A DNA stretch of 63,525 nucleotides, filler included, from Kipferlia bialata (taxonomy: Eukaryota), in the NCBI GenBank assembly GCA_003568945.1. It is 4 parts of 4 records of this genome, joined end to end, with 100 filler letters (N's around TTAATTAATTAA, not from the genome) between each part and the next. Parts side by side here need not be neighbours in the genome. Positions count along the whole stretch, not along the records: positions 24,585 to 49,051 come from BDIP01000227.1; 3 more parts are not named here. One strand, 5' to 3'. The position numbers were made by a program, and so were the translations under genes. Below are positions 30,906 to 31,572 of the stretch, one piece after another; position 1 is the stretch's first letter; each line of letters starts with the position of its first letter. A model generated the notes under the pieces. That model was not told the DNA's origin and ran no database searches. It worked only from the letters and a program-made list of their open reading frames with translations.

Positions 30906-31572
30906 CTTCTCTGTCACTGAGGGCACCCCTTGAGAAGGAGGGGAGAGAGAGAGAGAGTACCTTCTCTGTCACTGAGGGCACCCCTTGAGAAGGAGGGGGG
31001 GGCAGGGCCGGTCATCTCACTCTGGAAGGATGAGTAACGGCATGTACACATGTGTGTATAATAGTATGAATATAGAGAAATAGAACACTTATGGTGCATA
31101 TGCTCTCACTCTATGTAAATATAGTATAATGTACTCTACCTCTGTGGCCTCGCTGACTCCTCCGTAGTAGCCAGTCGACATGGTCTGAGGGTGAGGAAGA
31201 TGTAATTAAGAATAATACATATAGTATATATAGGTGTGATATATAACGCAATATTACTAGTGGACATGTGCTGGGGGTGAGGAAGACGTAATGAATTGTA
31301 ACATATAGTGTAGATACACTCTTTATATACCTCTCTAGGTGTTGTGGGCAGGGATGACCTCCCATACCGGGGTGTAGTGCCCCCAGAGGATATGGTGGCA
31401 ATGGTGTGGGGGGTGGAGTCGGTGCCGGAAGGGCTCTAGAGGTAAGATAGATAGAGAGAAGTACAGTGAGAGAGAGAGAGTGAGAGATGATATGGTGGCT
31501 ATGGTGTGGGGGGTGGTATCAGTTCCCGAGGGGGACTGGTGGTTAGATGCCTATGTAGTAATATATGTATAC

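What the first reader, a model, noticed from the sequence alone, without database searches (positions are those of the whole stretch)
31385..31535. Near-saturated synonymous recoding of an echo, including a Ser AGC/TCC switch
Seen (minus strand): the intact exon start 31435-31385 reads AGC CCT TCC GGC ACC GAC TCC ACC CCC CAC ACC ATT GCC ACC ATA TCC TCT. The echo exactly 100 nt upstream (31535-31485, own CTAACCACCAG acceptor) reads TCC CCC TCG GGA ACT GAT ACC ACC CCC CAC ACC ATA GCC ACC ATA TCA TCT. Eight of 17 codons differ synonymously and only one differs in amino acid (S/T). Inference: this exceeds ordinary allelic polymorphism and implies long purifying selection on a fragment that has no donor and runs into (CT)n.
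Basis: partly seen in the sequence, partly recalled or inferred. Interest (0 to 1): 0.8.

Follow-up and report, generated by a model that had tools for sequence, protein, structure and literature searches.

The report
Introns stacked with other-allele exon halves
In the free-living protist Kipferlia bialata many introns hold stacked half-copies of the neighbouring exon edge that differ from it mostly at silent codon positions (and are spliced out where RNA was checked); they are likely pieces of other alleles left by unequal recombination, which would make one genome a record of very high diversity and outcrossing in this species.

Summary
In detail: 8 of 17 codons differ silently, one changes S/T, offset 100 nt. 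One DNA contig spans echo and exon at normal depth, and a spliced RNA contig joins the HTRK exon straight to 31435, skipping the echo. The gene is Kipferlia bialata KIPB_001560. The echo is not special. Three genes carry 79 such half-exon copies; 150 of 196 differences are at third codon positions, pN/pS 0.11, echo-versus-echo 0.15; 40 of 40 donor echoes keep GT, 36 of 39 acceptor echoes keep AG. A clonal duplicate decaying in an intron predicts a ratio of at least about 0.5 (toy simulation 0.58-1.0). Hidden translation fails too: 36 donor echoes that cannot be read in frame give 0.12. Most likely the silent changes arose while each piece was a working exon in another haplotype, and unequal recombination stacked them; exon-definition splicing would ignore them. 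This predicts synonymous diversity near 0.2, untested: no second isolate was found. Two further genes did not repeat the bias (4:6 and 0:10 silent:replacement).

The parts
31485..31535 (-). Focal acceptor-side echo: 17 codons, SPSGTDTTPHTIATISS, intronic
31536..31546 (-). Echo's own branch point and acceptor, CTAACCACCAG (differs from the exon's CTTACCTCTAG, both fit the consensus)
31602..31634 (-). Second, internally deleted copy of the echo (shares ATA); not scored by the scan
31331..31435 (-). Working exon, 105 nt, phase 0-0, SPSGTDSTPHTIATISSGGTTPRYGRSSLPTTPRE
   Evidence: RNA contig record 9; P0001
32018..32117 (-). Upstream exon ending HTRK, joined to 31435 in RNA
   Evidence: (record places 276/277)
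31436..32017 (-). 582-nt intron holding two donor echoes (ending 31869 and 31743) and the acceptor echoes
30098..37166 (-). Gene A = KIPB_001560, 20 exons, 565 aa, no Pfam or NCBIfam family; 34 scored echoes, pN/pS 0.07
30291..30555 (-). Three donor echoes of LDTLAQMTVIAP: 17 silent and 1 replacement difference from the exon
36605..37041 (-). Five donor echoes of VLLALQRSRGGRRMYAHLK, including CTC/TTG Leu switches; 4 four-gamete site pairs
24756..28226 (+). Gene B (11 exons modelled, open frame, no RNA check): 17 echoes, pN/pS 0.125
41682..48781 (-). MATE-like transporter gene (18 exons modelled in two blocks, no RNA check; public model KIPB_001562 covers part): 28 echoes, pN/pS 0.17
44339..44483 (-). 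Two acceptor echoes of YLALLVLPIMGLT with 6 and 5 silent, 0 replacement differences: as saturated as the focal echo

Best explanation
The echo is a spliced-out half-copy of the exon start, one of 79 such copies in three genes, and its silent differences likely arose while it was a working exon in another haplotype, from which unequal recombination likely placed it beside today's exon. Steps: (1) shown: unit = part of an exon (median 39%) plus its splice site and intron flank, about 105 nt, stacked up to five deep; (2) shown: differences between echo and exon, and between echoes, are those of coding sequence under purifying selection, splice dinucleotides included; (3) shown for five introns of this gene: the main RNA uses the sites nearest the exon; inferred: exon definition hides a copy that has only one splice site; (4) inferred: once one echo exists, crossovers or conversions between an echo and the exon of a divergent allele (exons are the only well-matched stretches between such alleles) add and refresh echoes with allelic sequence faster than they decay; (5) predicted: synonymous diversity among interbreeding K. 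bialata strains of about 0.15-0.35.
For: 150 of 196 differences at codon position 3, 30 at 1, 16 at 2; pS 0.228, pN 0.025 (JC 0.27 and 0.026); unique variants 115 silent against 39 replacement steps, p=4e-17 against 'echo neutral, exon fully constrained' (41% silent expected); echo-echo pN/pS 0.15 over 56 pairs; 40 of 40 GT, 36 of 39 AG; 4 of 7 scored indels in frame, one of 15 nt. Scan control: 0 hits in 294 scans of unrelated introns. Donor and acceptor echoes alike (0.117, 0.103); 36 untranslatable donor echoes 0.122; without the focal echo 0.109. No direction of decay: GC-to-AT 35, AT-to-GC 40; no age order along arrays (24 against 20 pairs); 12 of 49 variable sites have 3 or more alleles; 6 of 19 informative site pairs show four gametes; intron flanks differ at 30-68% of positions beyond +3 while GT differs at 0%. 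Toy simulation: exchange within one chromosome gave pN/pS 0.58-1.03 in 8 of 8 settings; exchange with other haplotypes at 30 times the mutation rate and theta 0.1-0.3 gave pS 0.20-0.36, pN 0.036, ratio 0.10-0.18, exon diversity 0.17-0.34. RNA skips the echoes. Precedents: crossing-over in hypervariable Schizophyllum falls in exons (PMC4209137, abstract); its synonymous diversity is 0.20 (PMC4576712, abstract and section 5); with long introns the splice sites nearest across the exon are chosen (PMC9225289, abstract); Fornicata lack Rad51A and NHEJ and keep two Dmc1 paralogues (PMC8516963, passages).
Against: No second isolate was found, so the allele pool is not seen. The implied diversity is at or above the eukaryote record. 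Held-out genes did not repeat the bias: gene D 4 silent and 6 replacement codon changes in 7 echoes (2 of the 6 from one doubtful alignment), kelch-like gene 0 and 10 in 5 echoes. The laid DNA run shows no second haplotype at this locus (contigs drop rare variants). Exon divergence does not track flank divergence (rho 0.14, p 0.21) and breakpoints are not enriched for microsatellite-like exon bases (13 of 68, background 20%), so how the first echo forms is unexplained. Four-gamete pairs can come from repeat mutation at near-saturated sites. The simulation treats sites as independent, N=100, one echo. Only 8 of 49 modelled exons have RNA support.
Confidence: 0.6

Rival explanations
1. Clonal back-up copies: echoes arise by tandem duplication in one lineage and are kept coding-competent because deletion or conversion now and then swaps them into the exon (second-order selection).
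For: Explains the intact splice sites and needs no sex; 20 of 79 echoes show no silent difference from the exon and look like fresh duplicates; some arrays hold duplicates of each other (47139/47007, 45192/45073).
Against: Exchange frequent enough to purge echoes also erases their silent differences: 8 of 8 clonal settings gave pN/pS 0.58-1.03 against 0.11 seen.
Confidence: 0.12
2. Hidden present use: echoes enter mRNA or a rearranged DNA copy under some condition (alternative or trans-splicing, template jumping, developmental deletion between echo and exon), so they are under direct selection.
For: Branch-point-like motifs kept in 31 of 39 acceptor echoes (44 of 49 working acceptors); only contigs, not raw reads, were available, and 9 joints and 402 pieces were not shown; RNA depth in the echo's bin is 162, but that bin also holds (CT)n that draws unrelated contigs.
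Against: The depth-290 RNA contig uses the exon-proximal sites at five echo-bearing introns with no other letters in the exons. Use of the focal acceptor gives a frameshift and stop; only 4 of 40 donor echoes could be read in frame, and the other 36 show the same bias. One unbranched DNA contig spans the site.
Confidence: 0.1
3. Relics of whole duplicated exons that were once used as mutually exclusive alternatives and were later cut back to one splice site.
For: Gives both copies a period under selection; one 33-nt in-frame piece with both splice sites exists (35562-35530).
Against: None of the 79 scored echoes is a whole exon (median 39%); 34 of 45 introns are affected; nothing would keep up to six exons that encode the same peptide; the missing halves leave no trace.
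Confidence: 0.1
4. Artefact or paralogue: collapsed haplotypes joined in tandem by the assembler, or pieces converted from paralogous genes.
For: The laid DNA run may be the data behind the window, so it is not independent material; the window has small errors (30998, 32694) and one identical copy beside an N gap (47963, dropped).
Against: A separate assembly gives one contig over echo and exon at single-copy depth; a second full exon with the echo's 51 nt should have branched it. Protein searches found only the gene itself, 1 of 15 and 1 of 30 candidates (weak by the tool's own note). Up to six versions with their own flanks would need six haplotypes.
Confidence: 0.05

Closest known systems
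Tandem genomic duplication across a splice site (duplicated or decoy splice sites; intron gain by tandem duplication; recalled, with PMC9225289 for site choice)
   Same: A tandem copy carries a second splice site; the site nearest across the exon is used.
   Different: Known cases are copies of the resident sequence that decay neutrally. Here copies stack up to five deep, affect 34 of 45 introns, and differ like orthologous coding sequence (pN/pS 0.11).
Tandem exon duplication with mutually exclusive splicing (recalled)
   Same: Neighbouring exon-like copies with a purifying-selection signature.
   Different: Copies here have one splice site, cover a median 39% of the exon, encode the same peptide and are absent from the main RNA.
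Recombination in hyperpolymorphic species (Schizophyllum commune; PMC4209137, PMC4576712)
   Same: Synonymous diversity near 0.2, many multi-allelic sites, crossovers confined to exons.
   Different: There the diversity is measured between isolates; here it is inferred from copies inside one haplotype. I saw no report of exon-edge arrays in the parts of those papers that I read.
Silent-cassette gene conversion (Borrelia vls, Neisseria pilS) and paralogous MDS of ciliates (both recalled)
   Same: Partial, unexpressed gene pieces near an expressed copy that may be recombined in.
   Different: Cassettes diversify the protein; these mostly do not. No programmed rearrangement was seen in the DNA contigs.

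Membership tests
Mutually exclusive tandem exon duplicate | Copy has both an acceptor and an in-frame donor | tested here: not met
   Only GT in the spacer (31464) is out of frame; none of 79 echoes is a whole exon
Mutually exclusive tandem exon duplicate | Copy appears in spliced RNA | tested here: inconclusive
   Main RNA contig skips it; rare forms cannot be seen in contigs
Neutral tandem duplication of a splice-site region | Direct, adjacent copy including the splice site | tested here: met
Neutral tandem duplication of a splice-site region | Copy decays without regard to codons (pN/pS about 0.5 or more) | tested here: not met
   0.11 pooled, 0.15 echo-echo; met in the kelch-like gene, unclear in gene D
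Allele capture by unequal recombination | Copies differ as functional alleles do: silent sites, in-frame indels, intact splice sites, no direction of decay | tested here: met
Allele capture by unequal recombination | Mosaic copies (recombination among versions) | tested here: inconclusive
   6 of 19 informative pairs show four gametes; repeat mutation not excluded
Allele capture by unequal recombination | Echo codons found in working exons of other isolates | not testable with these tools
   No other isolate found
Exon-definition splice-site choice | [quoted passage not shown] | tested here: met
   Five echo-bearing introns in RNA record 9; P0001 equals the 20-exon model
Silent-cassette antigenic variation | Cassettes change the amino-acid sequence of a surface protein | tested here: not met
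   105 of 137 unique variant codons are silent; three unrelated genes
Assembly mis-join or paralogue | Break, halved depth or a second full exon in an independent assembly | tested here: not met
   record 3
MATE transporter (gene C) | Pfam MatE at gathering score | tested here: inconclusive
   24.5 bits against 24.9, E 2.5e-5, on a 177-aa partial public model; NCBIfam MATE hits far under cut-off

The most novel reading that the evidence does not exclude
The arrays are a self-renewing library: echoes and exon edges are swapped by recombination often enough that each intron stores several working alleles of its exon edges, so that a single K. bialata genome archives the allele pool of a sexual, hyperdiverse species (silent diversity 0.2-0.3, at or beyond the eukaryote record), and this stacking is what makes its introns long.
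Probability: 0.4. Interest if true: 0.88.

Novelty: new variant of a known kind. Interest (0 to 1): 0.68.

Why it matters
If the reading holds, one genome gives evidence of outcrossing and of extreme diversity in a free-living fornicate, a group in which sex is a long-open question (from my own knowledge; meiotic genes are known, PMC8516963 passages). It also offers a mechanism of intron growth: intron length in the 45 modelled introns follows 119 + 105 nt per echo (r=0.90). It points to exon-definition splicing in a protist with a reduced spliceosome (87 of 174 proteins, PMC6679479 passages). Practically, echoes mislead gene prediction: the public model KIPB_001562 ends by reading the echo at 41860 into microsatellite. 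The claim is directly testable with the public genome and one more isolate.

Tried and rejected
No whole genome was held, so the count is for this window only. Metagenome scans found nothing: 427 pattern hits, none a relative, for gene D's long exon; 0 for a degenerate pattern of the focal codons. These blanks say only that no second isolate is held. No listed holder was on record as RNA; X2 is a guess by the tool, although its contig is spliced at GT-AG sites. RNA was laid on 30100-34140 only, so exons outside it are unchecked. ESM Atlas gave only kelch-like leads under 0.9. Pfam found nothing for P0001 or five short transporter exons. Earlier findings: none. Rejected: microhomology between exon and intron microsatellite as the rule for breakpoints (13 of 68 against 20%); serial ageing along arrays (24 against 20); a two-haplotype origin (12 of 49 sites with 3 or more alleles, echo-echo ratio 0.15); an in-frame echo exon through the GT at 31464; reading AGC/TCC as special (one such switch, beside three CTC/TTG; S-T-S is an easy path in this S/T-rich region; inference). 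Rows dropped before the count: 3 of 82 hits (35530 and 35562, one possible mini-exon; 47963 beside an N gap); free ends were trimmed by a codon-blind rule; the copy at 31634-31602 and a few short copies fell under the score threshold. Not in print as far as searched: (open-licence PMC and bioRxiv only) listed no paper on such arrays; subscription papers and the supplements of PMC5874029 and PMC8516963, which may hold intron statistics and the meiotic gene list for K. bialata, were not seen.

Full report
Observation. The two strings, the 100-nt offset, the eight silent codons with the AGC/TCC switch and the single S/T change are as described. A degenerate codon pattern matches only these two places in the window and nothing in 100 shuffles. 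The change is uneven: all of the first 7 codons differ, only 2 of the last 10. A second copy with an internal deletion lies at 31634-31602 and shares the echo's ATA.

Organism and gene. The working exon matches one protein, hypothetical protein KIPB_001560 of Kipferlia bialata, 565 aa, 100% identical, a cluster of one sequence, from a 24,467-nt contig, which is the length of the piece 24585-49051 between two N spacers. My 20-exon model, built before that search, contains this protein letter for letter. It has no Pfam or NCBIfam family. K. bialata is a free-living fornicate with 124,912 introns (PMC5874029, passages and section 12; nothing on such copies in what I read).

Is it real, and is it used? 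Two public runs hold the stretch. In DNA run X1 one 586-nt contig covers 31000-31558, echo and exon together, with 0 other letters, at depth 396 against 368-458 for the six other listed contigs. X1 may be the data behind the window, so this excludes a mis-join, not a culture effect. In X2 a 1,117-nt contig at depth 290 is spliced across the gene and joins 32018 directly to 31435. It passes five introns that hold nine scored echoes and always uses the sites nearest the exon. Using the echo's acceptor would shift the frame and stop after 66 codons; the one GT in the spacer is out of frame. Rare forms cannot be seen in contigs.

The echo is one of many. Near-tandem copies occur only where introns are rich in microsatellites. 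I modelled 49 exons in three genes with open frames and scanned the introns for copies anchored at the exon ends, with no demand for GT or AG: 82 hits, and 0 in 294 control scans. Three were dropped (a possible mini-exon seen twice, one copy beside an N gap). In the 79 kept, 150 of 196 differences fall on third positions, pS is 0.228 and pN 0.025, ratio 0.11; by gene 0.07, 0.125 and 0.17; counted once per array, 115 silent against 39 replacement steps; echo against echo 0.15; 40 of 40 donor echoes keep GT and 36 of 39 acceptor echoes keep AG; one stop codon; 4 of 7 scored indels keep the frame. Flanks beyond the splice motif differ at 30-68% of positions (ungapped). The focal echo is 4th of 35 by pS and its removal changes nothing. 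Thirty-four of 45 introns carry echoes, and intron length follows 119 + 105 nt per echo, so the 100-nt offset is the usual unit size.

Results against generality. In two held-out genes the bias did not repeat: gene D gave 4 silent and 6 replacement changes in 7 echoes, the kelch-like gene 0 and 10 in 5 echoes; two genes with short plain introns had no echoes in 14 introns. This shows that the method does not create the bias, and also that it is gene-dependent. Breakpoints are not enriched for microsatellite-like bases, and exon and flank divergence do not correlate. The transporter model differs from the public one, which skips two of my exons and ends in an echo; only gene A has RNA and annotation support, and it has the lowest ratio.

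Mechanism. A duplicate that stops being used collects changes at all sites, while the exon collects them at silent sites, so the expected ratio is about 0.5 (inference); the data reject this at p=4e-17. Both lineages, and each echo's lineage, were therefore under selection as coding sequence for most of their separation. Present use cannot be the reason for donor echoes: 36 of 40 cannot be reached in frame, and they give 0.12. The remaining place where two versions of one exon are both under selection is in different haplotypes. That fits the lack of direction in silent changes (35 against 40), the lack of age order (24 against 20), three or more alleles at 12 of 49 sites and four gametes in 6 of 19 pairs. 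A toy two-copy simulation never went below 0.58 with exchange inside one chromosome (8 settings), and matched the data with exchange between haplotypes at about 30 times the mutation rate and exon diversity 0.17-0.34 (2 of 12 such settings fit pS and ratio best). Such diversity has one close precedent, 0.20 in Schizophyllum commune (PMC4576712, abstract and section 5), where crossovers fall in exons (PMC4209137, abstract): the situation in which an echo and the exon of another allele would mispair. Fornicata lack Rad51A and NHEJ and keep two Dmc1 paralogues (PMC8516963, passages), which leaves homologous recombination as the main repair route. Tolerance of the extra splice sites follows from exon definition, under which the sites nearest across the exon win (PMC9225289, abstract); a half-exon has no partner site. 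That K. bialata splices this way is inferred from the pattern.

What is not shown. No second isolate was found in runs, metagenomes or proteins, so the allele pool, outcrossing and the exchange step are inferred. How the first echo forms is open.

Comparison and verdict. The parts are known: tandem duplication over a splice site, unequal recombination, exon definition. Arrays of half-exons with an allele-like signature at most intron edges were not found in six literature searches (listings only for the papers not named above; some searches served for precedents), nor in earlier findings of this scan. New variant of a known kind; interest 0.68.

Noticed in passing
window 24485-24584, 49052-49151, 61411-61510: N + TTAATTAATTAA + N spacers: the window is four contigs joined end to end, so neighbours across them are not genomic neighbours.
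   Followed up: yes
window 30888-30998 and 32694: A perfect 55-nt tandem copy; at 30998 both laid runs read A where the window has G, at 32694 the DNA run reads A for T: likely consensus errors in the window.
   Followed up: partly
window 35562-35530 (-): 33-nt in-frame piece with both AG and GT (YAAAGVPVQRG), absent from P0001: a possible whole mini-exon, showing how an echo could become a protein repeat.
   Followed up: no
window 36050-36107 (-): Donor echo carries an in-frame 15-nt insertion (5 residues) relative to the exon: looks like a length allele.
   Followed up: partly
window 44594 (-): The transporter frame stays open only with a GC-AG intron here; the public model skips the two flanking exons.
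   Followed up: partly
window 41860 (-): Public protein KIPB_001562 ends by using this echo acceptor and reading into (CT)n: echoes mislead gene prediction.
   Followed up: partly
window 45803-45740 (-): Short ATTAGGGG duplication in the transporter gene with no clean in-frame GT-AG solution; G-run error, odd intron or a break.
   Followed up: no
window 38879-40800 (+): Kelch-like gene whose echoes differ by 0 silent and 10 replacement changes, the opposite of the other genes; also a copy of coding sequence after the stop near 40770.
   Followed up: partly
window 1-24484 and 53800-61400: Almost no microsatellites and no echoes; introns of 54-160 nt. Two intron regimes sit side by side in this genome.
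   Followed up: partly
window 47000-47453 (-): Donor echoes alternate in flank type (gtaag, gtatg, gtaag, gtatg), as if a two-unit block had been duplicated.
   Followed up: no
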